DNA from: Eledone cirrhosa
Taxonomy: Eukaryota
NCBI GenBank assembly: GCA_964016885.1
Contig: OZ024758.1
Span: 26,536,001 to 26,600,000 of the forward strand
Direction of reading: 5' to 3'
DNA: 64,000 nt
In this document: in pieces, positions 823-55,569 of the stretch
Layout of the letters: the number at the start of each line of letters is the position of its first letter
How positions within the stretch are numbered: position 1 is the first letter of the stretch
The notes under the pieces: generated by a model
What the model saw: the letters and a program-made list of their open reading frames with translations, nothing else
The model's database searches: none
What the model was told of the DNA's origin: nothing
Made by a program: the position numbers and the translations under genes

Positions 823-1258
823 CCCTTTAATGTTCAAACCGGCCAAAACCGGCCAGAATTCTCTACCTCTTTCTGTTGAAACTGGCTGTAACTGGTCACT
901 CAAACTGATGTTAAGGTATTGTTCTCAAAATAAATACTTTCAAAATCTCATAGATTCGATATTATGTGAGATAATTATGCGAGGTAAAGCCTTTACCATG
1001 AAAATATAATAATATATATAGAGTAATGTGAATGCTAAAGGGTTAACCCTTTAACATTTACATTACTCTATATATATTATTATATTTTCATGGTAAATTA
1101 CATAATTATCTCAAATTGTATCGAATCTATGAGATTTTGATATTATTTACTTTGAGAACAATACCTTAACATCAGTATGAGTGGCTAGTTACAGCTAGTA
1201 TGAACAGAAAGAGGCGAGAGAATTCTGGTTAGATGCAGTCAGTTTAAATGCTAAAGGG
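823..1258. mobile_element. Two inverted piggyBac-like MITEs (~210 bp each) sharing a TTAA at 1043-1046
   Basis: Termini CCCTTTA...TAAAGGG abut TTAA. Same family recurs many times in the window. Confidence 0.75.
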
Positions 1259-1636: not shown

Positions 1637-2135
1637 CCACTTAACAGGGTGGGCTGGGTGTATTTTGTTACTACCACTTAACAGGGTGGGCTGGATGTAT
1701 TTTGTTGTAGCACCAGCACTACCACTTAACAGGGTGGGCTGGATGTGTTTTGTTGTAGCACCAGCACTACCACTTAACAGGGTGGGCTGGGTGTATTTTG
1801 TTGTAGCACCAACACTACCACTTAACAGGGTGGGCTGGATGTGTTTTATCATGGCACCAGCACTACTACTTAACAGGGTGGGCTGGGTGTATTTTGTTGT
1901 AGGAACAGCACTACCACTTAACAGGGTGGGCTGGGTGTGTTTTGTTGTAGCACCAGCACTACCACTTAACAGGGTGGGCTGGATGTGTTTTGTTGTAGCA
2001 CCAGCACTACCACTTAACAGGGTGGGCTGGGTGTGTTTTGTTGTAGCACCAGCACTACCACTTAACAGGGTGGGCTGGGTGTGTTTTGTTGTAGCACCAG
2101 CACTACCACTTTATGGGGGTGGGCTGGGTGTGTTT
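1637..2135 (+). repeat. 48-bp minisatellite (~10 units) related to the SINE internal module
   Basis: Unit ACCACTTAACAGGGTGGGCTGGRTGTGTTTTGTTGTAGCACCAGCACT; 16-aa periodicity in the ORF track. Confidence 0.9.
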
Positions 2136-2681
2136 TATTGTGACACCACCACTTTACAAGGTGGACTGGGTATGCTTTACCGTGGTTGTCACATGACCAT
2201 CTAGACTGGAGACTTTTTTCAGACCCTATAATATCTCAGACACTGTAACCTCCAGTCTCTCACCATTTTTACTTTTAGTGTCAGTGTTTCTACTGGTCGA
2301 CATGTTTTGTAATATGATACCGAAGTAAAATGGCTAAAGAGATAATGGTCTTCGAAGGTAATTCTACTGCAGGTATTTCATTGTGTATATGAGAAGTACA
2401 TTTAAACTGGCCCTATCTGGCCAGAATTCTCTCACCACTTTCTGTTCAAACCGGCTGTAACTAGCTGCTCATACTTATGTTATGGTACTGTTCTCAAAAT
2501 AAATATCAAAATCTCATAGATTCGATATTATGTGAGATAAAGTGTTTACCGTGAAAATACAATAGTATTTATAGAGTAATGTAAAGGGTTAATACAAATA
2601 AAACACCATATATGAAAGACTATATCATCATAATCATCATCATCATCATTTAACATCCATCTTCCTCGTTAGCATGGGTTG

Positions 2682-2719
<38 letters not shown>

Positions 2720-4444
2720 TTTAAATTTTTTTTTTTTTAACTGTTTGTCAATCAATGATAAACATTGATTGCCAGCTAAATTAATTATAGAAATATAAAA
2801 TATACAGAAGCGAAAACCAACCCCAAACCAACAGTGAGTGTGTTTTATTACATATTTCTGGCAATATTATAACAATATGACTCTCCCCAAATATAACAAC
2901 ACTTAACCCTTTAGCATTTAAACTGGCCATAACCAACCAGAATTCTCTCACCTCTTTCTGTTCAAACTGGCTGTAACTAGCCACTCATACTTATGTCAAG
3001 GTATTGTTTTCAAAATAGATAATACCAAAACCTCATAGATTCAATATTATGTGAGGTAAAGCCTTTTCCGTGAAAATACAATAGTAAATATTGAGAAATG
3101 TAAATGTTAATTCTATCTGCCACCATTCACCTAGAAGGGTAGAAATAAAGTAACAAATGATTGTGTTGTTTATGATAGACTGGCATTCAACCCAAGAGAA
3201 GATATCTCTCTCCTCACCTCACCTTAGCACTATGAAACTTGAACTTAAAACTAACCTTCAAAATGTCCTGAAGGACATAAGAAATTTCCATTTAGTAATT
3301 CAAGCACAACATCTTCTTATCCATAGCATGGAGTAAACAAATACATGGGGTTGCGAAAACAATATCATGATGTGATATCATTTGCCTCAAGAATATTTGG
3401 AGGTCAAAGATAAATACTGGAAAAGTTTCTCTTTTCTTTTTTAAAACTATAGCGGAAATCTGCTACATAACAGCATAACATGTTGTTGTTGTTGTTGTTA
3501 TTGCTAGACAGGCATAACCAAATAAAACACCATACACCTTTCCAAGTAGTAGCACATCTACAATTAGAAGCTGTCTAGATATCACCAATGGGATAAAACA
3601 AGGAGATGAGAGAGAGATAGAATATTGCAGCAGCTGAATGTGTAGGAGCAGGGTGGATGAAAAAAGCTCAGTGAAACATCCAAACTTCACCAAAGTAAAC
3701 ACACAAACACACACGACTTTGGTAACAGATAGAAAAACAAAAGTAGTTTTACTAAAAAACAAAGTATTTTAATGAAACATAGATACAATAGTGAAAGAGA
3801 TAACATTTAATAAGGAAGATGCTGAAAGATGAAGAAGTGGGTGTGGAAAAATACTATATGGCACTTAACTAAACAAAACTGTAGTTGACTGATCACTTAT
3901 AGAAAAGAAACCTTTCTGATACAACATTGTAAAGCAACCACTTGGAAGCCCATATTAACATCTTGATTCTTAGCAACGAAAGATATAAATAGTGAATCAC
4001 TAATAATCAGGCATATTCAGACAGCTGCCATACATTGTACAGTGAAAAGACTATTATAGATTTCATCATTTTATTTTTTATTGCTGCAAATGCAGAAATT
4101 CATTTGCTAACATTATAAATAACATGTACAGACTCCCACCAATAAAACTTTTGTGTTGTCTTTTGTAAAAACAATATTATTTTTAACTATAGCACGATGG
4201 CCTTAGCTTGAGATGGCTAAAACAAACTAAAGAGTTGAAGAACTGACGTCAGTAGCTCTTTTGGAGAAATCTCTTTATTTGGTGTTCTGTTAGTAAGTAG
4301 GAAGAATGGAAAACAAGGAAAATAAAGCAACAAAAAGACATAACAACATCAGAAAATGCATAAGAGAACTCAAGGAGTAGGAACTGGCTGTTTCAGAACA
4401 GACAGAGAGAGAGAGAGAGATATATATATATATATATATATATG

Positions 4445-4660
4445 GTGAAGGCGTGTGGCTGAGTGGTTAGAGAATTGGATTCACAATCTTGAGATTGTGA
4501 GTTCGATTCCTGGACCGGGCGATGCGTTATGTCCTTGAGCAAGACACTTTATTTCACGTTGCTCCTTCTACCTGGAGTTGCGACCGATAGATAGTATTAG
4601 CAATTGGAAAGACCAACGGAAACATTGTTTCCTCGGTCCGATTTGATGAAAGTCGATCGA
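4445..4660 (+). mobile_element. tRNA/CORE-type SINE variant (other copies ~19633-19790 and ~49491-49755)
   Basis: TGGCTGAGTGG A box, GAGTTCGATTCC B box, TCCTTGAGCAAGACACTTT core, and a different 3' part shared with the other copies. Confidence 0.7.
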
Positions 4661-4925
4661 TCCTTTAATATATATATATATATATATATCCACAAAATAC
4701 AATATATATATATATATATTTCGTTTCTGAATTTGTTTAGCAAGATTCTTTATCTGAAAACGTGTGTTGAAACCGATATTGTTATGCCTTGGGAGGGTCA
4801 TGTTGCCAATAAGAAACACAAGCACCAGTTGCTTTCACTTCAATTTTATAAATTAAATTTATAAATTTAAGAATTTATAAATTTCCGGTTGGTTGGTTCC
4901 ATAACCGGACGGTTGTTCATATATT

Positions 4926-4968
4926 GTCAAAGTTCTTTCGTCACACATTCTGTGACCTCTTCAGTGAC
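4926..4968 (-). ncRNA. Minimal type I hammerhead ribozyme motif (left arm)
   Basis: Exact reverse complement of 5099-5141. Confidence 0.7.
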
Positions 4969-5098
4969 TGGTGATTCTTTTCTTTGTTTTGTGCCTTTCC
5001 TTTGTTCTGTCTTACACCATCTTGTTTTTCACACACAAAAACAAGATGGCGTAGGACAGAACAAAGGAGAGGCACAAAAACAAAGAAAAGAATCTCCA

Positions 5099-5141
5099 GT
5101 CACTGAAGAGGTCACAGAATGTGTGACGAAAGAACTTTGAC
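5099..5141 (+). ncRNA. Minimal type I hammerhead ribozyme motif (right arm)
   Basis: GUCA-CUGAAGAG-GUCACA-gaaug-UGUGAC-GAAA-G-aa-C-UU^-UGAC. Stem I GUCA/UGAC, 6-bp stem II, minimal stem III, predicted cleavage after 5137. Confidence 0.7.
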
Positions 5142-5287
5142 AATATATGAACAACCGTCCGGTTATGGAACCAACCAACCGGAAATTTATAAATTTAATT
5201 TATAATAAATTGGAGTGAAAGCAACTGGTGCGTGTGTTTCTTATTGGCAACATGACCCTCCCAAAGCATAACAATATATATATATAT

Positions 5288-5619
5288 ATCATTGTCATTT
5301 TATGTCCCCTTTTTCCCTGCTTGCAAGGGTGGGACGGGAACTGATTCTGGCTTGATTTCTACAGCTGGATGCCCTTCTTAACACCAACCTCATTTACAGT
5401 GAGTGCTGGGTGCTTTTTTTGCCGTGGCACCTCCACGACCACTTTGCAGTGGAATGATAGGAACCCCAGTCCCTATCATCTCATTTCTACAGCTGAGTAA
5501 ACCGGAGCAATGTGAAATAAAGTGTCTTGCTCAAGGAAACACATCACCCGGTCTGAGAATTGAACTCACAACCTTTCGATTGCAAGGCCAATGCTCTAAC
5601 CACTAAGCCATGTGCCTCC
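5288..5619 (-). mobile_element. CORE-SINE family B copy
   Basis: Near-identical to 363-702. Confidence 0.85.
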
Positions 5620-6078
5620 ATATATATACATATATATATATATTGTGGAGGATATATATATATATACATACAATATATATATATATATTGTGGAGGATAT
5701 ATATATATATATACAATATATATATATACAATATATATATATATTGTGGAGGATATATATATATACATACAATATATATACATATATATATATATATTGT
5801 GGAGGATATATATATATACATACAATATATATACATATATATATATATTGTGGAGGATATATATCATCATCATCATCATCATCAACGTTTAACGTCCGTG
5901 TTCCACGCTTGCATGGGTTTGGACGGGGGTAGTCCCACTTGAGGCAAGAGTGATTGTCTTGCTCGCATAGGACTGTCTGGCAGGTTTTCTACAGTTGGAT
6001 GCCCTTCCTATATATATATATATATATTGTGGAGGATATATATATATATATATATACAATATATATATATATTATGGA

Positions 6079-6121
<43 letters not shown>

Positions 6122-6294
6122 CAATATATATATATAGTGGAGGATATATATAAATACAATATATATATATATATTGTATTTATATATATATATATATAAA
6201 TACAATATATATATATATATTGTATTTATATATATATATATTGTATTTATATATATATATATATATATATAAATACAATATATATATATATTGT

Positions 6295-6339
<45 letters not shown>

Positions 6340-6360
6340 TATATAGTATTTTGTGGAGGA
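5620..6360. repeat. Compound (TA)n microsatellite with recurrent TTGTGGAGGA, interrupted by a SINE 3' fragment (~5863-6009)
   Basis: Direct reading. Confidence 0.9.
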
Positions 6361-7794: not shown

Positions 7795-9640
7795 GCCGTC
7801 ACGACAAAAAGCACCCTCTCCACACTGTAAAGTGGTCACGGAGGTGTCACAACAAAAAGCACCCAGTCCACACTGTAAAGTGGTCATGTAGGTGTCATGA
7901 CTAAAAGGACCCAGTCCACACTGTACAGTGTTTGTGTAGGTGTCACAGTAAAAAAGCACCCAGTCCACACTGTACAGTGTTTGTGTAGGTGTCACAGTAA
8001 AAAAGCACCCAGTCCTCACTGTAATGTATTCGTGTAGATGCCACAGTAAAAAAGCACTCAGTCCATACTGTAATGTGTTTGTGTAGGTGCCACAGTAAAA
8101 AAGCACCCAGTCCTCACTGTAATGTATTCGTGTAGATGCCACAGTAAAAAAGCACCCAGTCCACACTGTACAGTATTTGTGTAGGTGCCACAGTAAAAAA
8201 GCACCCAGTCCACACTGTAAAGTGGTCGTGTAGGTGCCACAGTAAAAAAGCACCCAGTCCACACTGTACAGTGTTTGTGTAGGTGCCACAGTAAAAAAGC
8301 ACCCAGTCCTCACTGTAATGTGTTTGTGTAGGTGCCACAGTAAAAAAGCACCCAGCCCATACTGTAATGTGTTTGTGTAGGTGCCACAGTAAAAAAACAC
8401 CCAGTCCACACTGTACAGTATTTGTGTAGGTGCCACAGTAAAAAAGCACCCAGTCCACACTGTAAAGTGGTCGTGTAGGTGTCACAGTAAAAAAGCACCC
8501 AGTCCACACTGTACAGCGTTTGTGTAGGTGTCACAGTAAAAAAGCACCCAGTCCACACTGTAAAGTGTTTGTGTAGGTGCCACAGTAAAAAAGCACCCAG
8601 TCCACACTGTACAGTATTTGTGTAGGTGCCACAGTAAAAAAGCACCCAGTCCACACTGTATAGTGTTTGTGTAGGTGCCACAGTAAAAAAGCACCCAGTC
8701 CACACTGTAAAGTGGTCGTGTAGGTGTCACAGTAAAAAAGCACCCAGTCCACACTGTACAGTGTTTGTGTAGGTGTCACAGTAAAAAAGCACCCAGTCCA
8801 CACTGTACAGTGTTTGTGTAGGTGTCACAGTAAAAAAGCACCCAGTCCACACTGTAAAGTGTTTGTGTAGGTGTCACAGTAAAAAAGCACCCAGTCCACA
8901 CTGTACAGTATTTGTGTAGGTGCCACAGTAAAAAAGCACCCAGTCCACACTGTACAGTGTTTGTGTAGGTGCCACAGTAAAAAAGCACCCAGTCCACACT
9001 GTACAGTGTTTGTGTAGATGTCACAGTAAAAAAGCACCCAGTCCACACTGTACAGTGTTTGTGTAGGTGCCACAGTAAAAAAGCACCCAGTCCACACTGT
9101 AATGTATTCGTGTAGGTGCCACAGTAAAAAAGCACCCAGTCCACACTGTAATGTGTTCGTGTAGGTGCCACAGTAAAAAAGCACCCAATCCACACTGTAC
9201 AGTGTTTGTGTAGGTGCCACAGTAAAAAAGCACCCAGTCCTCACTGTAATGTATTTGTGTAGATGCCACAGTAAAAAAGCACCCAGTCCTCACTGTAATG
9301 TGTTTGTGTAGGTGCCACAGTAAAAAAGCACCCAGTCCACACTGTACAGTGTTTGTGTAGGTGCCACAGTAAAAAAGCACCCAGTCCACACTGTACAGTG
9401 TTTGTGTAGGTGCGACAGTAAAAAAGCACCCAGTCCTCACTGTAATGTATTCGTGTAGATGCCACAGTAAAAAAGCACCCAGTCCACACTGTAAAGTGGT
9501 CGTGTAGGTGCCACAGTAAAAAAGCACCCAGTCCACACTGTAAAGTGTTTGTGTAGGTGCCACAGTAAAAAAGCACCCAGTCCACACTGTAAAGTGTTTG
9601 TGTAGGTGCCACAGTAAAAAAGCACCCTGTACTCACTGTA
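7795..9640 (-). repeat. 49-bp minisatellite (~38 units) of the SINE internal module, ending in a SINE 3' part (to ~9807)
   Basis: Unit CACAGTAAAAAAGCACCCAGTCCACACTGTACAGTGTTTGTGTAGGTGC, followed by GTTAGGAAGGACATCCAGCTGTAG and a GAT tail. Confidence 0.92.
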
Positions 9641-9829
9641 AATGAGGTTGGTGTTAGGAAGGACATCCAGCTGTAGAAACAAAGCCAAATCAGTTCTGTA
9701 TGAGCAAGACATGGTCAACTGACCTGACATTGGCTACAACAGGACAACTCGTCTAACCCATACTTGTGTGGAAACATGGACATAAAATGAAATGATGATG
9801 GTGATGAAAGCCTTTACCATGAAAATATA

Positions 9830-10010: not shown

Positions 10011-11456
10011 TCTACTTATATATATAACCAGCAATTTCTCTGTCTGTCTGTCCGACAGTGGAAACACGTGCGTAGAGAGAGAGTGAGAGTGAAAGAAAGA
10101 GACAGACTACGAGAGGGGGAGAGAGGGAGAGTGAATAGACGCTAAAACACGTGCTACAGAAACATTACCTTCCCCTCTCCACTGACTTTGGTCACTGAGG
10201 CCGAGGGAATCGCGCTGAGCGCGTCATAATGACGTAATGCAGACAGCCAGACATACAGACAGATATTATAAGGGCGCAACGTTATATCTATGTATCTATC
10301 TAAAAAGAAAGACTAAGAATTATATAGAGAGAACGCTAAATCGCCTAATGCGGTCCCTAGGGCATTGAAAATTTGAAATAATTTTTGCTCAAAAAACTCA
10401 CAGGACCATAATTATTACATGTCTAAAGTTTGAAAACAATCGGTTGGATGGTTCTCAAGTTTTAGTGAGCTGACAGACAGACAGACATTCTCTGTTTTAG
10501 ATATATAGACTAGCAGAAAACCGCCCCCCCGGGTGGTTTTCTGCTAGTCTATATATATAAAACTGAGGATGTCTGTCTGTGTGTGTGTGTGTGTGTGTGT
10601 GAGTTTGAATCCCTAAAACTCGAGAACCACCCAACCGACTGTTTTCAAACTTTACACGTCTTCTGAGCAAAAAAAATTTCAAATTTTCAATGCCCTAGGG
10701 ACCGCATTAGGCGATTTAGCGACCTCTCTTTATAATTCTTAGTCTTTCTCTTTTTAGATAGATACATACATATAACGTCGTGCCCTTATAATGTCTGTCT
10801 GTATGTCTGGCTGTCTGCATTACGTCACTTCCCTGAGGATGTGTGTGTGTGTGTGTGAGTTTGAATCCCTAAAACTCGAGAAGTACCCAACCGATTTTTT
10901 TCAAACTTTACATGTGTATTACTTATGTTTTAGGGAGTGTTATGCACATAAAAATTCAACATTTTGATCTCCTAGGGCCCGCAATAGGTGAAAAACTGCG
11001 TTTTTAAAGCTTTTTAGGTTTTTATTTAGGTATTACGTCAGACCAATTTCCTTGATATTGTAACTATTTATTAGTCAGTCTCTTCTTCATACCGTGAGCA
11101 AAGAAAATCCAACTTTTTTATGGCCTAGGGCCCGCATTAGGTGAAAAACTTCATTTTTTTCAGCTTTTTAGAGCTTTTTGGAAGTGTTACGTCTAGCCGA
11201 TTTTCCCGAAATTTCAAGGCAATTAAGCACATAAAAAAAATTCATTTTCTTGATCCCCTAGGGCCCGCATTAGGTAAAAACCTGCATTTTTCCTGCTTCA
11301 ACTAGGAAAATCTTAAAGACTATCTAGCCATCAGAGTATTTGGTTTATTTTCTTTACATCTTGTCCAGGCATGCAGTTTTTCCACAATTAGGTCTCAATT
11401 AGGTCTCCCGCGTCCCAAAATACCTTATCCCGTGCAACGCCGGGTACCACTGCTAG
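10011..11456 (+). mobile_element. Non-autonomous Helitron
   Basis: 5' TCTACTTATATATATAA; 3' hairpin CCCGTGCAACGCCGGG followed by CTAG. Inserted at A^T inside a MITE (GAAAATATAA^TAGTAAATATAGAG) with no TSD. Confidence 0.8.
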
Positions 11457-12176: not shown

Positions 12177-12745
12177 TTACTGTGTAGCACCAAAGATCTC
12201 GGTCCAGTGACATTGTCTTGGAGAGGTGTGTGTGAGGTCGGAATTTATCAAGTCGTCCCAGGTTTTTCTGGGTCTGCCTACTCCGTGGCTACCGTCTATT
12301 TTGATTGCCCTGCACTTTTTTATACAGCTGTCGTCTTTCATGCGCATCACGTAACCATACCAACGTAGCCTTCTCTCGAGTAAACAACATCTGATCCCTC
12401 TTATTTCTAATTTCTCCCTTAGTTCGTTTATGCTTTGCCGTTCACGTATATTACTATTACACATCCAGCGGAGCATGCAAGCTTCGTTTCTCTCCAGTCT
12501 GCGTATATCCTCTGCACACAATGCCCAGGTCTCACTGCCATGTAACATTGCTGTTCGTATGCAGGCATCATACAGCCTGCCTTTCATTTTTAGAGAGAAC
12601 CCTTTAGCGGCCAATAGTGGTATAAGCTCTCTGAACTTTTTCCATCCCGTTCTGACTCTAGCTACTGTACTTTCAGAGCACCCTCCCCCACTGCTGATTT
12701 TATCACCCAGGTAACGGAAACTGTCCACTATTTCTATAGAACCAG
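12177..12745 (-). mobile_element. RTE-clade LINE 3' fragment (RT C-terminus)
   Basis: ORF FRYLGD...LHGSETW...RRLRWYGYVMRM...GRPRKTW, typical of the RTE ORF end. Confidence 0.85.
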
Positions 12746-13039
12746 TTAGTATTCTGTGGGCACTTGCTGCTACTTATTTCAGGAAAAAAGTAGTGCCTTC
12801 GACACCAGGAAATATGGTAAGTGTCAGTCATTTATTTTATAAGTAAAATAAGATGCTTGAATTTGTGTATGCAATTCCTATTTTCACTACTTCAATACTC
12901 AAAGCTGGAACAAAAGCCCCAAAAACTAAGTTGTCACCAAAAATTATAAATAAAAGCCCCAAAAACTAAGTTGTCACCAAAGATTATAAACGTCATTGCC
13001 GCCATCCACTAAATTAATTAATTTAAAATTTAAAAACGT

Positions 13040-13534: not shown

Positions 13535-14890
13535 TTCATCATCATCATCATCTTACGTCCGCTTTTCCCTGCTTACAAGGGTGGGACGGGAACTGATTCT
13601 GGCTTGATTTCTACAGCTGGATGCCCTTCCTAACACCAACCTCATTTACAGTGAGTGCTGGGTGCTTTTTTGCCGTGGCACCTACACGACCACTTTGCAG
13701 TGTGGGCTGGGTGCTTTTTTGCCGTGGCACCTCCACGTCCACTTTACAGTGTGGGTTGGGTGCTTTTTTGCCGTGGCACCTCCACGTCCACTTTACAGTG
13801 TGGGCTGGGTGCTTTTTTGCCGTGGCACCTCCACGTCCACTTTACAGTGTGGGCTGGGTGCTTTTTTGCCGTGGCACCTCCACGTCCACTTTACAGTGTG
13901 GGTTGGGTGCTTTTTTGCCGTGGCACCTCCACGTCCACTTTACAGTGTGGGTTGGGTGCTTTTTTGCCGTGGCACCTCCACGTCCACTTTACAGTGTGGG
14001 CTGGGTGCTTTTTTGCCGTGGCACCTCCACGTCCACTTTACAGTGTGGGCTGGGTGCTTTTTTGCCGTGGCACCTCCACGTCCACTTTACAGTGTGGGCT
14101 GGGTGCTTTTTTGCCGTGGCACCTCCACGTCCACTTTACAGTGTGGGCTGGGTGCTTTTTTGCCGTGGCACCTCCACGTCCACTTTACAGTGTGGGCTGG
14201 GTGCTTTTTTGCCGTGGCACCTCCACGTCCACTTTACAGTGTGGGCTGGGTGCTTTTTTGCCATGGCACCTCCACGTCCACTTTGCAGTGTGGGCTGGGT
14301 GCTTTTTTGCCGTGGCACCTCCACGTCCACTTTACAGTGTGGGCTGGGTGCTTTTTTGCCATGGCACCTCCACGTCCACTTTACAGTGTGGGCTGGGTGC
14401 TTTTTTGCCGTGGCACCTCCACGTCCACTTTACAGTGTGGGCTGGGTGCTTTTTTGCTGTGGCACCTCCACGTCCACTTTACAGTGTGGGCTGGGTGCTT
14501 TTTTGCCGTGGCACCTCCACGTCCACTTTACAGTGTGGGCTGGGTGCTTTTTTGCTGTGGCACCTCCACGTCCACTTTACAGTGTGGGCTGGGTGCTTTT
14601 TTGCCGTGGCACCTCCACGTCCACTTTACAGTGTGGGCTGGGTGCTTTTTTGCTGTGGCACCTCCACGTCCACTTTACAGTGTGGGTTGGGTGCTTTTTT
14701 GCCATGGCACCTCCACGACCACTTTGCAGTGGACAGGGACCCCAGTCCCTATCATCTCATTTCTATAGCTGAGTAAACTGTAGCAATGTGAAATAAAGTG
14801 TCTTACTCAAGGAAACAACACATCACCCAGTCTGAGAATTGAATTCACAACCTTTCGATTGCAAGGCCAATGCTCTAACCACTAAGCCAT
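13535..14890 (-). mobile_element. Near full-length CORE-SINE B with an internal 49-bp minisatellite expansion (~13645-14730, ~22 units)
   Basis: SINE head and tail flank the unit CCACTTTACAGTGTGGGCTGGGTGCTTTTTTGCCGTGGCACCTCCACGT. Confidence 0.9.
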
Positions 14891-30321: not shown

Positions 30322-30454
30322 GGATGGAGATGTGAAGAGGATTTTAACCCAATTTAAGTCTGAAACAGGAGAAGTAGCTGGGGCACCATTTGATCTCCCT
30401 ATCAATCTCTCGGTTGATAAGCTTCAGTTGATTTGTAATGCCATTCTAAAAGAG
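30322..30454 (+). CDS. NLE1: NLE1 coding exon 2 (NLE/UBL domain)
   Basis: cAG|...GAG|GTAAGA. DGDVKRILTQFKSETGEVAGAPFDLPINLSVDKLQLICNAILKE. Confidence 0.92.
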
Positions 30455-32340: not shown

Positions 32341-35300
32341 AGGCTTCCCCAGTTCATCTGATAGGTAAGACATAGTTGAGTGCAAGACTATATGTGAGAC
32401 ACAGGCCTCCAGTTCATTTGATAGATAAGACTATATGTGAGACACAGGCCTCCAGTTCATCTGATAGGTAAGACTATATGTGAGACACAGGCCTCCAGTT
32501 CATCTGATAGGTAAGACTATATGTAAGACACAGGCCTCCAGTTCATCTGATAGGTAAGACTATATGTGAGACACAGGCCTCCAGTTCATCTGATAGGTAA
32601 GACTATATGTAAGACACAGGCCTCCAGTTCATCTGATAGGTAAGACTATATGTGAGACACAGGCCTCCAGTTCATCTGATAGGTAAGACTATATGTAAGA
32701 CACAGGCCTCCAGTTCATCTGATAGGTAAGACTATATGTAAGACACAGGCCTCCAGTTCATCTGATAGGTAAGACTATATGTGAGACACAGGCCTCCAGT
32801 TCATCTGATAGGTAAGACACAGGCCTCCAGTTCATCTGATAGGTAAGACTATATGTAAGACACAGGCCTCCAGTTCATCTGATAGGTAAGACTATATGTA
32901 AGACACAGGCCTCCAGTTCATCTGATAGGTAAGACATAGTTGAGTGCAAGACTATATGTGAGACACAGGCCTCTAGTTCATCTGATAGGTAAGACATAGT
33001 TGAGTGCAAGACTATATGTGAGACACAGGCCTCTAGTTCATCTGATAGGTAAGACATAGTTGAGTGCAAGACTATATGTGAGACACAGGCCTCTAGTTCA
33101 TCTGATAGGTAAGACATAGTTGAGTGGAAGACTATATGTGAGACACAGACCTCCAGTTCATCTGATAGGTAAGACATAGTTGAGTGCAAGACTATATGTG
33201 TGACACAGGCCTCCAGTTCATCTGATAGGTAAGACACAATTGAGTGCAAGACTATATGTGAGACACAGGCCTCCAGTTCATCTGATAAGTAAGACATAGT
33301 TGAGTGCAAGACTATATGTGAGACACAAGCCTCCAGTTCATCTGATAGGTAAGACATAGTTGAGTGCAAGACTATATGTGAGACACAGGCCTCCAGTTCA
33401 TCTGATAGGTAAGACATAGTTGAGTGCAAGACTATATGTGAGACACAGGCCTCCAGTTCATCTGATAGGTAAGACATAGTTGAGTGCAAGACTATATGTG
33501 AGACACAGGCCTCAGTTCATCTGATAGGTAAGACATAGTTGAGTGCAAGACTATATGTGAGACACAGGCCTCCAGTTCATCTGATAGGTAAGACATAGTT
33601 GAGTGTAAGACTATATGTGAGATACAGGCCTCCAGTTCATCTGATAAGTAAGACATAGTTGAGTGCAAGACTATATGTGAGACACAAGCCTCCAGTTCAT
33701 CTGATAGGTAAGACATAGTTGAGTGCAAGACTATATGTGAGACACAGGCCTCCAGTTCATCTGATAGGTAAGACTATATGTAAGACACAGGCCTCCAGTT
33801 CATCTGATAGGTAAGACTATATGTGAGACAAAGGCCTCCAGTTCATCTGATAGGTAAGACATAGTTGAGTGCAAGACTATATGTGAGACACAGGCCTCTA
33901 GTTCATCTGATAGGTAAGACATAGTTGAGTGCAAGACTATATGTGAGACACAGGCCTCAGTTCATCTGATAGGTAAGACATAGTTGAGTGCAAGACTATA
34001 TGTGAGACACAGCTCTCCAGTTCATCTGATAGGTAAGACATAGTTGAGTGCAAGACTATATGTGAGACACAGGCCTCCAGTTCATCTGATAGGTAAGACA
34101 TAGAGTGTAAGACTATGTGTGAGACACAGACCTCCAGTTCATCTGATAGGTAAGACATAGTTGAGTGCAAGACTATATGTGAGACACAGGCCTCCAGTTC
34201 ATCTGATGGGTAAGACATAGTTGAGTGCAAGACTATATGTGAGACACAGGCCTCCAGTTCATCTGATAAGTAAGACATAGTTGAGTGCAAGACTATATGT
34301 GAGACACAGGCCTCTAGTTCATCTGATAGGTAAGACATAGTTGAGTGCAAGACTATATGTGAGACACAGGCCTCCAGTTCATCTGATAGTTAAGACATAG
34401 TTGAGTGCAAGACTATATGTGAGACACAAGCCTCTAGTTCATCTGATAGGTAAGACATAGTTGAGTGCAAGACTATATGTGAGACACAGGCCTCTAGTTC
34501 ATCTGATAGGTAAGACATAGTTGAGTGCAAGACTATATGTGAGACACAGGCCTCTAGTTCATCTGATAGGTAAGACATAGTTGAGTGCAAGACTATATGT
34601 GAGACACAGGCCTCTAGTTCATCTGATAGGTAAGACATAGTTGAGTGGAAGACTATATGTGAGACACAGACCTCCAGTTCATCTGATAGGTAAGACATAG
34701 TTGAGTGCAAGACTATATGTGAGACACAGGCCTCAGTTCATCTGATAGGTAAGACATAGTTGAGTGCAAGACTATATGTGTGACACAGGCCTCCAGTTCA
34801 TCTGATAGGTAAGGCATAGTTGAGTGCAAGACTATATGTGAGACACAGGCCTCTAGTTCATCTGATAGGTAAGACATAGTTGAGTGCAAGACTATATGTG
34901 AGACACAGGCCTCTAGTTCATCTGATAGGTAAGACATAGTTGAGTGCAAGACTATATGTGAGACACAGGCCTCTAGTTCATCTGATAGGTAAGACATAGT
35001 TGAGTGCAAGACTATATGTGAGACACAGGCCTCCAGTTCATCTGATAGGTAAGACATAGTTGAGTGCAAGACTATATGTGAGACACAGGCCTCCAGTTCA
35101 TCTGATAGGTAAGACATAGTTGAGTGCAAGACAATATGTGAGACACAGGCCTCAGTTCATCTGATAGGTAAGACATAGTTGAGTGCAAGACTATATGTGA
35201 GACACAGGCCTCCAGTTCATCTGATAGGTAAGACATAGTTGAGTGTAAGACTATATGTGAGACACAGGCCTCCAGTTCATCTGATAAGTAAGACATAGTT

Positions 35301-35959
35301 GAGTGCAAGACTATATGTGAGACACAAGCCTCCAGTTCATCTGATAGGTAAGACATAGTTGAGTGCAAGACTATATGTGAGACACAGGCCTCCAGTTCAT
35401 CTGATAGGTAAGACATAGTTGAGTGCAAGACTATATGTGAGACACAGGCCTCCATTTCATCTGATAGGTAAGACATAGTTGAGTGCAAGACTATATGTGA
35501 GACACAGGCCTCCAGTTCATCTGATAGGTAAGACATAGTTGAGTGTAAGACTATATGTGAGACACAGCTCTCCAGTTCATCTGATAGGTAAGACATAGTT
35601 GAGTGCAAGACTAAATGTGAGACACAGGCCTCCAGTTCATCTGATAGGTCAGACATAGTTGAGTGCAAGACTAAATGTGAGACACAGGCCTCCAGTTGAT
35701 CTGATAGGTCAGACATAGTTGAGTGTAAGACTATATGTGAGACACAGGCCTCTAGTTCATCTGATAGGTAAGACATAGTTGAGTGCAAGACTAAATGTGA
35801 GACACAGGCCTCTAGTTCATCTGATGGGTAAGACATAGTTGAGTGCAAGACTAAATGTGAAACACAGGCCTCCAGTTGATCTGATAGGTCAGACATAGTT
35901 GAGTGCAAGACTATATCTGAGACACAGGCCTCTAGTTCATCTGATGGGTCAGACATAGT
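32341..35959 (+). repeat. 60-bp minisatellite with 43-bp deletion variant (~60 units) in NLE1 intron 3
   Basis: Unit GACACAGGCCTCCAGTTCATCTGATAGGTAAGACATAGTTGAGTGCAAGACTATATGTGA. Confidence 0.95.
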
Positions 35960-38629: not shown

Positions 38630-41600
38630 TTACTGGGTTCTTTTTGTTGTGATGCCTACAGGACCACTTTACAGTGTGGGCTGGGCGCTTTTTGCCACGT
38701 CACCATCACGACCACTTTACAGTGTGGGCTGGGCACTTTTTGCCATGTCACCATCACGACCACTTTACAGTGTGGGCTGGGCACTTTTTGCCGCCTCACC
38801 ATCACGACCACTTTACAGTGTGGGCTGGGCACTTTTTGCCATGTCACCATCACGACCACTTTACAGTGTGGGCTGGGCACTTTTTTCCGCCTCACCATCA
38901 CGACCACTTTACAGTGTGGGCTGGGCACTTTTTGCCATGTCACCATCACGACCACTTTACAGTGTGGGCTGGGCACTTTTTGCCGCCTCACCATCACGAC
39001 CACTTTACAGTGTGGGCTGGGCACTTTTTTCCGCCTCACCATCACGACCACTTTACAGTGTGGGCTGGGCACTTTTTTCCGCCTCACCATCACCACCACT
39101 TTACAGTGTGGGCTGGGCACTTTTTGCCATGTCACCATCACGACCACTTTACAGTGTGGGCTGGGCACTTTTTGCCATGTCACCATCACGACCACTTTAC
39201 AGTGTGGGCTGGGCACTTTTTGCCATATCACCATCACGACCACTTTACAGTGTGGGCTGGGCACTTTTTGCCATGTCACCATCACGACCACTTTACAGTG
39301 TGGGCTGGGCACTTTTTGCCATGTCACCATCACGACCACTTTACAGTGTGGGCTGGGCACTTTTTGCCATGTCACCATCACGACCACTTTACAGTGTGGG
39401 CTGGGCGCTTTTTGCCACGTCACCATCACGACCACTTTACAGTGTGGGCTGGGCACTTTTTGCCATGTCACCATCACGACCACTTTACAGTGTGGGCTGG
39501 GCACTTTTTGCCGCCTCACCATCACGACCACTTTACAGTGTGGGCTGGGCACTTTTTGCCGCCTCACCATCACCACCACTTTACAGTGTGGGCTGGGCAC
39601 TTTTTTCCGCCTCACCATCACGACCACTTTACAGTGTGGGCTGGGCACTTTTTGCCGCCTCACCATCACGACCACTTTACAGTGTGGGCTGGGCACTTTT
39701 TGCCATGTCACCATCACGACCACTTTACAGTGTGGGCTGGGCACTTTTTGCCGCCTCACCATCACGACCACTTTACAGTGTGGGCTGGGCACTTTTTGCC
39801 GCCTCACCATCACCACCACTTTACAGTGTGGGCTGGGCACTTTTTGCCGCCTCACCATCACGACCACTTTACAGTGTGGGCTGGGCACTTTTTGCCATGT
39901 CACCATCACAACCACTTTACAGTGTGGGCTGGGCACTTTTTGCCATATCACCATCACGACCACTTTACAGTGTGGGCTGGGCACTTTTTGCCATATCACC
40001 ATCACGACCACTTTACAGTGTGGGCTGGGCACTTTTTGCCATGTCACCATCACAACCACTTTACAGTGTGGGCTGGGCACTTTTTGCCTTGTCACCATCA
40101 CGACCACTTTACAGTGTGGGCTGGGCACTTTTTGCCGCCTCACCATCACGACCACTTTACAGTGTGGGCTGGGCACTTTTTGCCATGTCACCATCACGAC
40201 CACTTTACAGTGTGGGCTGGGCACTTTTTGCCGCCTCACCATCACGACCACTTTACAGTGTGGGCTGGGCACTTTTTGCCGCCTCACCATCACCACCACT
40301 TTACAGTGTGGGCTGGGCACTTTTTGCCGCCTCACCATCACGACCACTTTACAGTGTGGGCTGGGCACTTTTTGCCATGTCACCATCACGACCACTTTAC
40401 AGTGTGGGCTGGGCACTTTTTGCCATGTCACCATCACGACCACTTTACAGTGTGGGCTGGGCACTTTTTGCCATATCACCATCACGACCACTTTACAGTG
40501 TGGGCTGGGCACTTTTTGCCATGTCACCATCACAACCACTTTACAGTGTGGGCTGGGCACTTTTTGCCATGTCACCATCACAACCACTTTACAGTGTGGG
40601 CTGGGCACTTTTTGCCGCCTCACCATCACGACCACTTTACAGTGTGGGCTGGGCACTTTTTGCCATGTCACCATCACGACCACTTTACAGTGTGGGCTGG
40701 GCGCTTTTTGCCACGTCACCATCACGACCACTTTACAGTGTGGGCTGGGCACTTTTTGCCGCCTCACCATCACGACCACTTTACAGTGTGGGCTGGGCAC
40801 TTTTTGCCATGTCACCATCACGACCACTTTACAGTGTGGGCTGGGCACTTTTTGCCGCCTCACCCTCACGACCACTTTACAGTGTGGGCTGGGCACTTTT
40901 TGCCATGTCACCATCACGACCACTTTACAGTGTGGGCTGGGCGCTTTTTGCCACGTCACCATCACGACCACTTTACAGTGTGGGCTGGGCACTTTTTGCC
41001 ATGTCACCATCACAACCACTTTACAGTGTGGGCTGGGCACTTTTTTCCGCCTCACCATCACGACCACTTTACAGTGTGGGCTGGGCACTTTTTGCCATGT
41101 CACCATCACGACCACTTTACAGTGTGGGCTGGGCACTTTTTGCCGCCTCACCATCACGACCACTTTACAGTGTGGGCTGGGCACTTTTTGCCGCCTCACC
41201 ATCACCACCACTTTACAGTGTGGGCTGGGCACTTTTTTCCGCCTCACCATCACGACCACTTTACAGTGTGGGCTGGGCACTTTTTTCCGCCTCACCATCA
41301 CGACCACTTTACAGTGTGGGCTGGGCACTTTTTGCCATGTCACCATCACGACCACTTTACAGTGTGGGCTGGGCACTTTTTGCCGCCTCACCGTCACGAC
41401 CACTTTACAGTGTGGGCTGGGCACTTTTTGCCGCCTCACCATCACCACCACTTTACAGTGTGGGCTGGGCACTTTTTGCCTTGTCACCATCACGACCACT
41501 TTACAGTGTGGGCTGGGCACTTTTTGCCGCCTCACCATCACGACCACTTTACAGTGTGGGCTGGGCACTTTTTGCCATGTCACCATCACGACCACTTTAC

Positions 41601-44396
41601 AGTGTGGGCTGGGCACTTTTTGCCGCCTCACCATCACGACCACTTTACAGTGTGGGCTGGGCACTTTTTGCCATGTCACCATCACGACCACTTTACAGTG
41701 TGGGCTGGGCACTTTTTGCCGCCTCACCATCACGACCACTTTACAGTGTGGGCTGGGCACTTTTTGCCGCCTCACCATCACAACCACTTTACAGTGTGGG
41801 CTGGGCACTTTTTGCCATATCACCATCACAACCACTTTACAGTGTGGGCTGGGCACTTTTTGCCATGTCACCATCACGACCACTTTACAGTGTGGGCTGG
41901 GGACTTTTTGCCGCCTCACCATCACGACCACTTTACAGTGTGGGCTGGGCACTTTTTGCTGCCTCACCATCACAACCACTTTACAGTGTGGGCTGGGCAC
42001 TTTTTGCCATGTCACCATCACGACCACTTTACAGTGTGGGCTGGGCACTTTTTGCCATGTCACCATCACGACCACTTTACAGTGTGGGCTGGGCACTTTT
42101 TGCCATGTCACCATCACGACCACTTTACAGTGTGGGCTGGGCACTTTTTGCCATGTCACCATCACGACCACTTTACAGTGTGGGCTGGGCACTTTTTGCC
42201 GCCTCACCATCACGACCACTTTACAGTGTGGGCTGGGCACTTTTTGCCATGTCACCATCACGACCACTTTACAGTGTGGGCTGGGCACTTTTTGCCGCCT
42301 CACCATCACAACCACTTTACAGTGTGGGCTGGGCACTTTTTGCTGCCTCACCATCACAACCACTTTACAGTGTGGGCTGGGCACTTTTTGCCATGTCACC
42401 ATCACGACCACTTTACAGTGTGGGCTGGGCACTTTTTGCTGCCTCACCATCACAACCACTTTACAGTGTGGGCTGGGCACTTTTTGCCATGTCACCATCA
42501 CAACCACTTTACAGTGTGGGCTGGGCACTTTTTGCCGCCTCACCATCACGACCACTTTACAGTGTGGGCTGGGCACTTTTTGCCATGTCACCATCACAAC
42601 CACTTTACAGTGTGGGCTGGGCACTTTTTGCTGCCTCACCATCACAACCACTTTACAGTGTGGGCTGGGCACTTTTTGCCATGTCACCATCACAACCACT
42701 TTACAGTGTGGGCTGGGCACTTTTTGCCATGTCACCATCACAACCACTTTACAGTGTGGGCTGGGCACTTTTTGCCGCCTCACCATCACGACCACTTTAC
42801 AGTGTGGGCTGGGCACTTTTTGCCGCCTCACCATCACGACCACTTTACAGTGTGGGCTGGGCACTTTTTGCCATGTCACCATCACGACCACTTTACAGTG
42901 TGGGCTGGGCACTTTTTGCCATGTCACCATCACGACCACTTTACAGTGTGGGCTGGGCACTTTTTGCCATGTCACCATCACAACCACTTTACAGTGTGGG
43001 CTGGGCACTTTTTGCCATGTCACCATCACAACCACTTTACAGTGTGGGCTGGGCACTTTTTGCCATGTCACCATCACAACCACTTTACAGTGTGGGCTGG
43101 GCACTTTTTGCCGCCTCACCATCACGACCACTTTACAGTGTGGGCTGGGCACTTTTTGCCGCCTCACCATCACGACCACTTTACAGTGTGGGCTGGGCAC
43201 TTTTTGCCATGTCACCATCACGACCACTTTACAGTGTGGGCTGGGCACTTTTTGCTGCCTCACCATCACGACCACTTTACAGTGTGGGCTGGGCACTTTT
43301 TGCCATGTCACCATCACGACCACTTTACAGTGTGGGCTGGGCACTTTTTGCCGCCTCACCATCACGACCACTTTACAGTGTGGGCTGGGCACTTTTTGCC
43401 ATGTCACCATCACAACCACTTTACAGTGTGGGCTGGGCACTTTTTGCTGCCTCACCATCACGACCACTTTACAGTGTGGGCTGGGCACTTTTTGCTGCCT
43501 CACCATCACGACCACTTTACAGTGTGGGCTGGGCACTTTTTGCCATGTCACCATCACAACCACTTTACAGTGTGAGCTGGGCACTTTTTGCCGCCTCACC
43601 ATCACGACCACTTTACAGTGTGGGCTGGGCACTTTTTGCCGCCTCACCATCACGACCACTTTACAGTGTGGGCTGGGCACTTTTTGCCGCCTCACCATCA
43701 CGACCACTTTACAGTGTGGGCTGGGCACTTTTTGCTGCCTCACCATCACAACCACTTTACAGTGTGGGCTGGGCACTTTTTGCCATGTCACCATCACAAC
43801 CACTTTACAGTGTGGGCTGGGCACTTTTTGCCACGTCACCATCACGACCACTTTACAGTGTGGGCTGGGCACTTTTTGCCGCCTCACCATCACGACCACT
43901 TTACAGTGTGGGCTGGGCACTTTTTGCCATGTCACCATCACGACCACTTTACAGTGTGGGCTGGGCACTTTTTGCCATGTCACCATCACGACCACTTTAC
44001 AGTGTGGGCTGGGCACTTTTTGCCACCTCACCATCACGACCACTTTACATAGTGGGCTGGGCACTTTTTGCCGCCTCACCATCACGACCACTTTACAGTG
44101 TGGGCTGGGCTCTTTTTGCCATGTCACCATCACGACCACTTTACAGTGTGGGCTGGGCTCTTTTTGCCATGTCACCATCACAACCACTTTACAGTGTGGG
44201 CTGGGCACTTTTTGCCATGTCACCATCACGACCACTTTACAGTGTGGGCTGGGCACTTTTGCCGCCTCACCATCACGACCACTTTACAGTGTGGGCTGGG
44301 CACTTTTTGCCGCCTCACCATCACAACCACTTTACAGTGTGGGCTGGGCACTTTTTGCCATGTCACCATCACAACCACTTTACAGTGTGGGCTGGG
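38630..44396 (+). repeat. 48-bp minisatellite (~120 units, 5.8 kb) of the SINE internal module in NLE1 intron 4
   Basis: Unit CCACTTTACAGTGTGGGCTGGGCACTTTTTGCC(ATG/GCC)TCACCATCAC(G/A)A. Confidence 0.95.
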
Positions 44397-48260: not shown

Positions 48261-48358
48261 GTTGTTGTATGGGATCCTGCTACTGGTAAACAAATTGGTC
48301 GGACACTAGCTGGTCATAAGCAATGGATAACATGTTTGGCTTGGAAACCTATGCATTT
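48261..48358 (+). CDS. NLE1: NLE1 coding exon 6 (WD40)
   Basis: tttAG|...TT|GTGAGT. VVVWDPATGKQIGRTLAGHKQWITCLAWKPMH(L). Confidence 0.95.
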
Positions 48359-48618
48359 GTGAGTTCATTTTTCTCTTAAATTGTTCAGAATATTATCATC
48401 ATTAACATCTATCTTCGATGCTAGCATGGGTTAGATGGGTTTGTCTCATTTAGAGGCAAGTTTGGTCGGGTGACCGTGTCTCGCTCATATAGGAGAGTTT
48501 CTTGCTGGTTTCCTACAACTGGAGGCCATTCCTAGCGCCATGTCTTTTACATGTCCACATTACATTGTGTGTTGGATGTTTTGTGGTACCAGTATAATAT
48601 ACATATATATGATATATA

Positions 48619-51781: not shown

Positions 51782-51849
51782 GTAAATACCACTGAAAATC
51801 TTTTACAATTTTACCCCACCCTTCACCCATGTCCACATATCCTCCAGTC

Positions 51850-54629: not shown

Positions 54630-55149
54630 CTTGTTGTGAGTTCAATTCTCGGACCAGGTGATGTGTTGTGTCCTTGAGCAAGACACTTTATTTCACATTG
54701 CTCCAGTTTACTCAGCTGTAGAAATGAGATGATAGAGACTGGGGTCCCTATCATTCTACTGCAAAGTGGTCGTGGAGGTGCCACGGCAAAGAAGCACCCA
54801 GCCCACACTGTAAAATGGAAGTGTAGGCGCCACGGAAAAAAGCACCCAGCACTCCCTGTACTCACTGTAAATGAGGTTGGTGTTAGGAAGGACATCCAGC
54901 TGTAGAAACCAGGCCAAGATCAGTTCCCGTATGAGCAAGACAAGGTCAGCTGACTGGACACTGCCCACAACAGGACAACCCATCTAACCCATGCTAGCGT
55001 GGAAGGACGGACGTAAAACGGTGATGATGATGACTTGGCACTGCAGTGGCATCTAGAAAATATCTTGATTTATTTTATTAGTTCAAAAGAAGTAATTCTA
55101 TTAGCCTACTAACTTACTAGTGTTAGAACTTTTATACTTTATATATATA

Positions 55150-55444
55150 TTTCGTTTCTGAATTTGTTTAGCAAGATTCTTTATCTGAAATCGTGTGTTG
55201 AAACCGATATTGTTATACTTTGGGAGGGTCATGTTGCCAATAAGAAACACACGCATCAGTTGCTTTCACTTCAATTTATTATAATAAATTTATAATAAAT
55301 TTATAAATTTCTGGTTGTGGAACCAAGGAACCAACCAACCAACCAGAAATTTATAAATTTATAAATTTATTATAAGAAATTGAAGTGAAAGCAACTGGTG
55401 CGTGTGTTTCTTATTGGCAACATGACCCTCCCAAAGTATAACAA
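55150..55444. mobile_element. Second Penelope-like foldback copy, with shorter arms and no hammerhead
   Basis: Same tail and outer arm sequence as 4719-5277; ACTTTATATATAT duplicated on both flanks. Confidence 0.75.
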
Positions 55445-55569
55445 CTTTATATATATTTTTTAGTAAATACCAAGTTGGCAATTAGGTATTCATGGCACCC
55501 CAGTACCGTTCCAAAATTTTAAAATGCTAGCGTGGAAGATAGACGTTAAACGATGATGATGTTGATTAA

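What the first reader, a model, noticed from the sequence alone, without database searches (positions are those of the whole stretch)
4719..5277. Penelope-like foldback element: inverted arms, one-sided tail, (TA)n target
Seen: ~250-bp arms (4776-5029 / 5037-5277) form a near-perfect palindrome, only the left arm extends a further ~57 nt, and both flanks are (TA)n. Known: inverted pLTR copies with an extra tail on one side and embedded minimal hammerheads are hallmarks of Penelope-like elements. Inference: a non-coding, microsatellite-targeting PLE derivative (retrozyme-like), possibly an undescribed cephalopod family. A simple MITE would not explain the asymmetric tail.
Basis: partly seen in the sequence, partly recalled or inferred. 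Interest (0 to 1): 0.8.

Follow-up and report, generated by a model that had tools for sequence, protein, structure and literature searches.

The report
Mirror-image Penelope retroelement ends, octopod
This 560-base mirror-image repeat is one copy of a very abundant repeat family and is likely the cut-short end of a Penelope-like jumping gene, inserted twice head-to-head in a TA-repeat; that is a known kind of element, and its protein-coding partner was not found.

Summary
Observation confirmed. Arms 4776-5029 and 5037-5277 match at 233 of 240 aligned bases, only the left arm has a 57-nt tail, and both flanks are (TA)n. Each arm carries a minimal hammerhead motif reading outward. A second copy (55150-55444) has the same two outer ends, a different centre and a 12-bp flanking direct repeat. 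Public runs show a very abundant family with tailed and tail-less ends, several centres and shared sequence further upstream. So both arms are 5'-truncated, and the 7-nt 'loop' is element sequence. This is the published anatomy of endonuclease-bearing Penelope-like insertions; close opposite-strand hammerhead pairs were reported in 2014 (PMC4209133). A MITE and a retrozyme each fail defining tests. No RT/GIY-YIG ORF could be linked (no genome held; peptide searches empty), so clade and autonomy stay open. The tail is longer than the published 30-40 bp. This scan noted the same kind of element before on other DNA (shark-like genomes: e1-7858806, e1-7858586). Verdict: new member of a known kind, low-to-moderate interest.

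The parts
4668..4718 (.). left flank: interrupted (TA)n target
4719..4775 (-). one-sided 57-nt tail (long 3' end of the element)
   Evidence: 56 of 57 identical to the tail of the second copy; TA-flanked loose ends at 4702 in 64 contigs of X1
4776..5029 (-). left arm: 5'-truncated pseudo-LTR-like end, reading outward
   Evidence: family sequence continues past 5027/5029 in 47,158 + 3,323 reads of X20 (table 7)
4719..4801 (-). ATG-started frame open through the whole tail (possible ORF start; weak, unproven)
   Evidence: chance 0.22 in shuffles; no protein relative found
4885..4908 (-). small internal hairpin (6-bp inverted repeat); its variant is the microhomology at the centre of the second copy
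   Evidence: z = -1.64 only
4926..4968 (-). minimal type I hammerhead motif, left arm (stem I 4 bp, core, bulge, stem II 6 bp, stem III 2 bp with 2-nt loop)
5030..5277 (+). right arm including the 7-nt 'spacer': inverted, 5'-truncated, tail-less copy (short 3' end at 5274-5277)
   Evidence: table 7 (loose ends before 5030; TA-flanked tail-less ends at 4776 in 54 contigs of X1)
5099..5142 (+). minimal type I hammerhead motif, right arm
5278..5290 (.). right flank: (TA)n target
55150..55444 (.). second copy: same tail end and same short end, arms about 105-110 nt, truncated before the hammerhead, centre at a 6-bp inverted microhomology with an 8-nt duplication; lies between notchless exons
   Evidence: arms 103 of 105 identical
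55137..55148 (+). 12-bp direct repeat left of copy 2 (likely target-site duplication); partner at 55445-55456
   Evidence: this 12-mer occurs only at these 2 places in the 64 kb window, both strands searched

Best explanation
The element is a head-to-head pair of 5'-truncated copies of one repeat end, with a tail on one arm only and a hammerhead-type motif in each arm, and it is likely the insertion product of an endonuclease-bearing Penelope-like retrotransposon whose GIY-YIG/RT protein would be supplied from elsewhere in the genome. Shown: palindrome, tail, two fixed outer ends, variable centre, TA target, 12-bp duplication at copy 2, motif anatomy, high copy number. Inferred from published work: the endonuclease nicks both strands of an AT-rich/(TA)n site about 12 bp apart; reverse transcription starts at either of two fixed internal sites of the RNA (long end = tail, short end = no tail; PMC11167929); both cDNAs stop early and are joined head-to-head, at short inverted microhomology where there is one (copy 2). 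Self-priming at the palindromic junction (PMC3846280) would give the same structure and is not excluded. The mirror would thus be built per insertion. This copy is probably dead on arrival: it encodes no protein, and a read-through transcript would bury the hammerhead in a 240-bp hairpin. The most likely driver is a hammerhead-bearing, microsatellite-targeting clade such as Neptune (guess; not tested).
For: Anatomy matches Fig. 2 and text of PMC8557442 (inverted 5'-truncated copy at the 5' end; tail on one end) and PMC3846280 (head-to-head, 8-10 bp TSDs, optional 31-bp tail). Motif fits the min-HHR description of PMC4209133 (long helix II, 4-5 bp helix I, bulge before G10.1-C11.1, paired 15.2-16.2); core plus stem II arises in 18 of 20,000 shuffled arms, and the strict scan finds 2 sites in 64 kb, both here. 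Of 40 read differences shown (82 not shown), those inside the motif fall at N7, loop II, loop III and the cleavage-site base, none on core or stem pairs; one beside it extends stem I to 5 bp (table 3, mapped). Same outer ends but other centre in copy 2; 6 of 12 shown joint rows (70 not shown) link left-arm positions 4770-4956 to 5030-5035 (table 5c). Both arms of a copy share the copy's own letter at 2 diagnostic sites, none discordant (alignment), as expected from one template.
Against: No RT or GIY-YIG ORF linked: none among 150 window frames scanned with Pfam (148 of the 221 stop-to-stop frames of 55 aa or more outside tandem arrays, plus 2 element frames), no relative of the tail-spanning peptide, and no non-TA continuation past the tail among the 24 loose-end rows shown (780 not shown). 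Tail is 57-60 nt against 30-40 bp in print. Loop III (AA) is not palindromic, and the motif's fold is not more stable than shuffles (z = -0.39). Rfam lists no hammerhead family among 67 matches at E <= 10. No direct (tandem) pLTR pair seen. The TSD rests on one copy. Strand-switch joints in contigs of palindromic repeats can be library or assembly artefacts.
Confidence: 0.83

Rival explanations
1. Same Penelope-type insertion machinery, but the master is a dedicated short non-coding (SINE-like, non-autonomous) RNA of a few hundred bases that parasitises a PLE, not the truncated end of a coding element. This is a sub-case of the best explanation.
For: Very high abundance (11,779 of 16,285,364 contigs of X1 laid on 363 nt); length-variable AT-rich indels between hammerhead and tail break any frame across it; the roughly 100 nt seen upstream of the hammerhead is purine- and CA-rich with no recognisable domain; no protein relative. 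Non-autonomous PLE partners are known in Chlamys (PMC8557442).
Against: Depth falls toward the centre and the family runs on upstream of this copy, as for ordinary 5' truncation (tables 2, 7); how far could not be seen. One X6 contig of 2,018 nt matches only with its first 108 nt and goes on upstream (table 8), content unseen. Most min-HHRs in animal genomes sit in truncated PLEs (PMC4209133 section 5).
Confidence: 0.3
2. A palindromic TA-targeting MITE or foldback DNA transposon moved by a DDE transposase.
For: Long inverted arms and TA flanks; palindromic MITE-like repeats exist (frog Harbinger, PMC5625713 passages).
Against: The two termini are not mirror images; centre differs between copies; 12-bp duplication at copy 2; hammerhead motif with variation at tolerant positions.
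Confidence: 0.05
3. A non-LTR retrozyme that spreads through a small circular RNA cut out by tandem hammerheads.
For: Type I hammerhead-like motif, no ORF in the copy; retrozymes are proposed to derive from PLE pLTRs (bioRxiv 10.64898/2026.07.22.740005, part 1 of 5 and passages).
Against: No tandem direct repeat of the unit; the two motifs lie on opposite strands, so one transcript holds only one in sense; motif is minimal, not canonical.
Confidence: 0.04
4. An assembly or library fold-back artefact.
For: Long palindromes can be made by fold-back chimeras (general knowledge); no laid record spans the whole stretch.
Against: Arms differ at 7 of 240 bases plus indels; an independent second copy with a flanking duplication.
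Confidence: 0.01

Closest known systems
Inverted-pLTR plus tail insertions of EN+ Penelope-like elements (Adineta vaga Pen2/Pen2a, PMC3846280; scheme in PMC8557442 Fig. 2)
   Same: Head-to-head inverted truncated copy, tail on one arm only, 8-10 bp TSD (12 bp here), AT-rich target, about 200-bp pLTR, palindrome at the junction; ORF start inside pLTR and tail (only a weak hint here).
   Different: No ORF and no direct pLTR in either window copy; tail 57-60 nt against 31 nt; very high copy number.
Dual min-HHRs on opposite strands in truncated PLEs (Schistosoma mansoni Cercyon; PMC4209133 section 5)
   Same: Two minimal hammerheads 100-700 bp apart on opposite strands (cores at 4964 and 5103 here); long helix II, 4-bp helix I, bulged base, G10.1-C11.1.
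   Different: Loop III is AA, not palindromic; helix II 6 bp against 7-8; linked RT ORF shown there, not here.
Poseidon from Anolis carolinensis (PAc; PMC11167929)
   Same: Two fixed 3' ends defining the tail, downstream of the hammerhead; AT-rich cleavage.
   Different: There the ORF starts at stem II and the ends lie about 111-118 nt into it; here the ends lie about 130 and 190 nt past the motif, the ATGs near the motif are not conserved in reads (4948, 4918), and no significant stem-loop was found at the ends.
Octopus PLE families in PMC8557442 supplement: Hydra-1_Obim, Naiad_Obim, Naiad_Ovul, Naiad_Omin
   Same: Octopus hosts, (TA)n insertion preference; Hydra-1_Obim has the same 8-nt core spelling.
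   Different: Hydra-1_Obim has another stem II, a 4-bp stem III and ends about 35 nt past the motif; Naiads lack full hammerheads; 0 hits for 4 motifs of this element in the supplement text.
Non-LTR retrozymes (PMC7229834; bioRxiv 10.64898/2026.07.22.740005)
   Same: Non-coding, type I hammerhead, PLE-related.
   Different: Those are head-to-tail arrays with a hammerhead per unit and circular RNA; this is a head-to-head pair.

Membership tests
EN+ Penelope-like element | single ORF with telomerase-like RT and GIY-YIG endonuclease linked to the terminal sequence | tested here: inconclusive
   none in the window, peptide searches empty; no genome held, upstream sequence beyond about 30 nt not visible
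EN+ Penelope-like element | minimal type I hammerhead in the pLTR | tested here: met
   against the description in PMC4209133; loop III not palindromic; cleavage not tested
EN+ Penelope-like element | inverted 5'-truncated copy joined head-to-head, variable junction | tested here: met
   tables 5c and 7
EN+ Penelope-like element | optional tail at one end, two fixed 3' ends | tested here: met
   2 of 2 window copies; ends at 4702 and 4776 in contigs; length 57-60 nt, outside the published 30-40 bp
EN+ Penelope-like element | short variable TSD, AT-rich or microsatellite target | tested here: met
   12-bp duplication at copy 2; not discernible inside (TA)n at copy 1
EN+ Penelope-like element | partial tandem with direct pLTRs | tested here: inconclusive
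   not in the 2 window copies; genome not searchable
Non-LTR retrozyme | head-to-tail tandem units, each with a type I hammerhead | tested here: not met
   motifs on opposite strands, no tandem array in the window
Non-LTR retrozyme | circular RNA intermediate | not testable with these tools
   no raw RNA run listed
MITE / foldback DNA transposon | mirror-image terminal inverted repeats at both ends | tested here: not met
   first and last 42 nt unrelated
MITE / foldback DNA transposon | fixed length and centre, superfamily-specific short TSD | tested here: not met
   559 vs 295 nt, different centres, 12-bp duplication
Naiad clade PLE | no canonical hammerhead; N-terminal endonuclease | tested here: not met
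   a full minimal motif is present; protein not available
Hydra clade PLE | hammerhead with 3-4 bp stem III close to the 3' end; RWK/DKT motifs in the protein | tested here: inconclusive
   stem III is 2 bp, unlike the Hydra rows of File S2; (TA)n preference shared; protein not available
Neptune clade PLE | RT phylogeny and CX2-5CxxC linker | not testable with these tools
   no ORF in hand; microsatellite bias of Neptune taken from PMC8557442

The most novel reading that the evidence does not exclude
A dedicated non-coding Penelope parasite with an unusually long 57-nt tail has flooded octopod genomes and lands as a ready-made 100-250 bp perfect hairpin, also inside introns (copy 2 lies in notchless), making it a main self-contained source of the long double-stranded RNA behind octopus A-to-I hyper-editing, and giving a huge natural record of inversion junctions that can decide between twin priming and self-priming in Penelope insertion.
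Probability: 0.2. Interest if true: 0.6.

Novelty: new member of a known kind. Interest (0 to 1): 0.27.

Why it matters
For repeat annotation: a high-copy octopod family that MITE finders would call a DNA transposon is likely a retroelement product. For mechanism: how PLEs make inverted copies and tails is still open (PMC8557442, PMC11167929), and a family with many thousands of short two-armed insertions, junction microhomology and measurable TSDs is a good statistical test bed; the long tail widens the known range. For the host: such copies fold on themselves when transcribed in introns, and octopus has an exceptional load of long dsRNA and hyper-editing (PMC5625713); a contribution of this family is untested.

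Tried and rejected
Pattern scans found nothing in viral contigs or metagenome contigs, as expected for an animal repeat. No RNA holder listed; run X6 is of unrecorded kind, so nothing is claimed on expression or editing. Rfam gave only sub-threshold miRNA-type hairpin matches and no hammerhead family. In one search table 5, 11 of the 15 joints shown (opposite strands, ending at 5059-5062) were dropped as products of my reference, which held 33 nt of the mirror arm; three 'skips' were not used; 4797/4814 (81 reads, 2 starts) may be a true centre or a library chimera. The X20 piles of read ends at 4730, 4845, 4856-4859 and 4880 coincide with AATT sites and were rejected as element ends (likely library cut sites); X20 counts are therefore biased and summed depth is not a copy number. 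The paired change in the small hairpin (4886/4907) was not taken as covariation evidence, because CpG decay gives the same changes. ATGs at loop II and at 4920-4918 were rejected as ORF starts (changed in many reads). The tail-spanning frame found no relatives and is open by chance in 22% of shuffles; a four-residue likeness to the Hydra-1_Obim N-terminus was judged chance. No stable stem-loop at the two 3' ends (z = 0.96 and -0.27). PMC5785218 (dimeric PLE hammerheads) is not held. Earlier-scan look-ups by sequence and place gave nothing.

Full report
Observation. The palindrome is real. The left arm 4776-5029 aligns to the reverse complement of 5037-5277 with 233 of 240 aligned bases identical; the gaps lie almost all in an AT-rich stretch near 4847-4871. 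The left arm continues for 57 nt (4719-4775) without a mirror, and both sides are TA runs. The arms differ by about 3%, so this is not a fresh fold-back artefact.

Host. The window holds exons of a notchless (NLE1) gene on the + strand (Pfam NLE and WD40; tblastn of P0002 gives exons at 30323, 31466, 36075, 44977, 48261 and about 61500). The best named relative of the first exon is Octopus bimaculoides notchless at 87%. The host is therefore likely an octopod. No genome is held.

Hammerhead. A strict scan of both strands of the 64 kb finds two sites with the core and a stem II of at least 4 bp, both in this element (+5103, -4964); a relaxed scan adds two weak 3-bp sites elsewhere. In 20,000 Markov-shuffled arms the pattern appears 18 times. 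The motif has a 4-bp stem I, a bulged base, a 6-bp stem II closed by G-C, and a 2-bp stem III with an AA loop. This fits the minimal PLE hammerhead of Cervera and de la Pena (PMC4209133; passages and section 5 read), except that loop III is not palindromic. Against: Rfam lists no hammerhead among 67 matches and the fold is not more stable than shuffles (z = -0.39). In laid reads, the listed differences inside the motif fall at N7 (4960), loop II (4948), loop III (4933, 4934) and the cleavage-site base (4930; U to A in 83,757 of 112,546 minus-mate reads of X20, 18% of X1 depth), and 4925 extends stem I by one pair; none of the 40 rows shown hits a core base or stem pair, but 82 rows are not shown (numbering). 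A toy duplex of two stem III cores gives -3.4 kcal/mol for the window form, -7.5 for the GA-loop variant and -10.8 for a perfect palindrome. Cleavage is untested. Both motifs read outward, so the arms are head-to-head.

Second copy. BLASTN of the element against the window finds one other copy, 55150-55444. Its tail is 56 of 57 identical and ends at the same base; its right arm stops at the same short end. Its arms are shorter (103 of 105 identical), it lacks the hammerhead, and its centre sits on the 6-bp inverted repeat of a small internal hairpin, with an 8-nt duplication. A 12-bp direct repeat flanks it (55137-55148 and 55445-55456) and occurs nowhere else in the window: likely a target-site duplication. 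At two sites the two arms of each copy share a letter that differs from the other copy, with no discordant site, as expected if both arms come from one template.

Family. 22 runs were listed; 4 were laid on 4700-5062 at 82% likeness. Laid: 11,779 of 16,285,364 contigs (X1), 470 of 762,587 (X6), 139,256 of 12,467,656 RAD reads (X20), all organism A, and 35 of 13,709,327 contigs of organism B (X4). These are not copy numbers, but they show a very abundant family with diverged subfamilies. Loose ends (24 rows shown, 780 not) give TA flanks at the tailed end (4702; 64 contigs) and at the tail-less end (4776; 54 contigs). Past 5027-5029, 47,158 and 3,323 reads continue in a shared sequence, and its mirror precedes 5030 (4,678 reads, 45 contigs). 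So both arms are truncated, and the 7-nt spacer belongs to the right arm. Six of the 12 joint rows shown in table 5c link left-arm positions 4770, 4806, 4812, 4893, 4898 and 4956 to 5030-5035, one with upstream family letters between: read as other centres, with the caveat that contigs of palindromic repeats can be chimeric. Eleven opposite-strand rows of table 5 were dropped as artefacts of my reference, and the X20 end piles match AATT sites.

The missing link. No RT or GIY-YIG frame was found in the window. An ATG at 4801 opens a frame that runs through the whole tail in both tailed arms, recalling Adineta Pen2a, whose pLTR and tail hold the first 22 codons (PMC3846280); but chance gives this in 22% of shuffles, and four searches found no relative. 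The octopus families in the PMC8557442 supplement are not this one: 0 hits for 4 motifs; Hydra-1_Obim has another hammerhead and end; Naiads lack full hammerheads.

Mechanism. Shown: structure, ends, centres, target, duplication, abundance. Inferred: a PLE protein acting from another locus nicks both strands of a TA-rich site; reverse transcription starts at either of two fixed RNA sites, which defines the tail (shown in vitro for anole Poseidon, PMC11167929, parts 1-2 of 4 read); both products stop early and are joined head-to-head. Self-priming at the junction is the published alternative (PMC3846280 discussion), and copy 2's centre on an internal hairpin fits it too. The copy encodes nothing; a read-through transcript would fold into 250 pairs and hide the hammerhead. 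Confidence in Penelope-type origin 0.83; that the master is a dedicated non-coding parasite about 0.3; MITE 0.05; retrozyme 0.04.

Comparison and novelty. Inverted truncated copies with a one-sided 30-40 bp tail are general PLE anatomy (PMC8557442; passages, section 11, supplement searches and parts 2, 52, 53 read). Pairs of minimal hammerheads 100-700 bp apart on opposite strands were reported as truncated PLEs in 2014. Penelope-like elements cover 6.83% of the O. vulgaris genome in 190 consensi (PMC13282606; passages and supplement search); that library, Dfam and Repbase could not be seen, so the family may already be named there. I found no paper on this family in the held library: searches list none and (cephalopod, Penelope, palindrom, non-autonomous) gave 0; subscription journals and bioRxiv supplements were not searchable. 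Other papers seen as passages only: PMC8967140, PMC7229834, PMC6765202, PMC5625713; bioRxiv 10.64898/2026.07.22.740005 part 1 of 5 and passages (12, 62). Two earlier notes of this scan describe the same kind of element in shark-like genomes; they are unchecked and not counted as support; one pointed me to PMC3846280. What differs from print is the tail length and, possibly, the scale.

Verdict. It works like the end of an endonuclease-bearing Penelope-like element and meets every anatomical test that could be run; the protein link is open. New member of a known kind; interest 0.27.

Noticed in passing
window 853-1228: Another palindrome (87% self-match over about 380 nt), not TA-flanked, no hammerhead core in the scans; arm-like sequence recurs at 2399-2505 and 2903-3059. 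Possibly a MITE.
   Followed up: partly
window 10230-10827: Palindrome of about 600 nt (78% self-match) with a near-perfect TA-bounded hairpin at its centre (about 10500-10560) and a further partial copy at 10866-10991; no hammerhead core found.
   Followed up: partly
window 1670-2153, 7806-9642, 13645-14731, 38662-44396, 51849-52745 and shorter arrays: 48/49-bp satellite arrays in both orientations (up to 119.5 copies); the same unit occurs once or a few times inside a dispersed SINE-like repeat (e.g. 5390-5450), so the arrays seem to grow from inside that repeat.
   Followed up: no
window 32384-35959: Tandem array with 43-, 60- and 180-bp periods inside a notchless intron.
   Followed up: no
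window 30323-61829 (+): Notchless (NLE1) exons spread over more than 31 kb; copy 2 of the element lies between the exons at 48261-48359 and about 61500.
   Followed up: yes
window 5620-5860, 6009-6360 and 4691-4703: (TA)n arrays interrupted by a recurring 10-12 nt purine-rich unit; the interruption in the element's left flank is the reverse complement of the same kind of unit. Origin unexplained.
   Followed up: no
window 4446-4528 and 5538-5620: tRNA-like SINE heads in opposite orientation on either side of the element (76% complementary; Rfam tRNA 28.1 bits at 5553-5610, just under the cut-off of 29).
   Followed up: no
window 63602-63838 (-): Mariner-type transposase fragment (Pfam Transposase_1, E 6.4e-13).
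   Followed up: no
window 12180-12773 (-): 198-aa frame that looks like the C-terminal part of an RTE-type LINE (label recalled, no Pfam match).
   Followed up: no
run X1/X6, position 4969 (table 7): 174 and 11 contigs leave the reference just upstream of hammerhead stem I with a T-rich (+ strand) sequence, median 127-164 nt: diverged subfamilies that keep the hammerhead-to-tail part.
   Followed up: no
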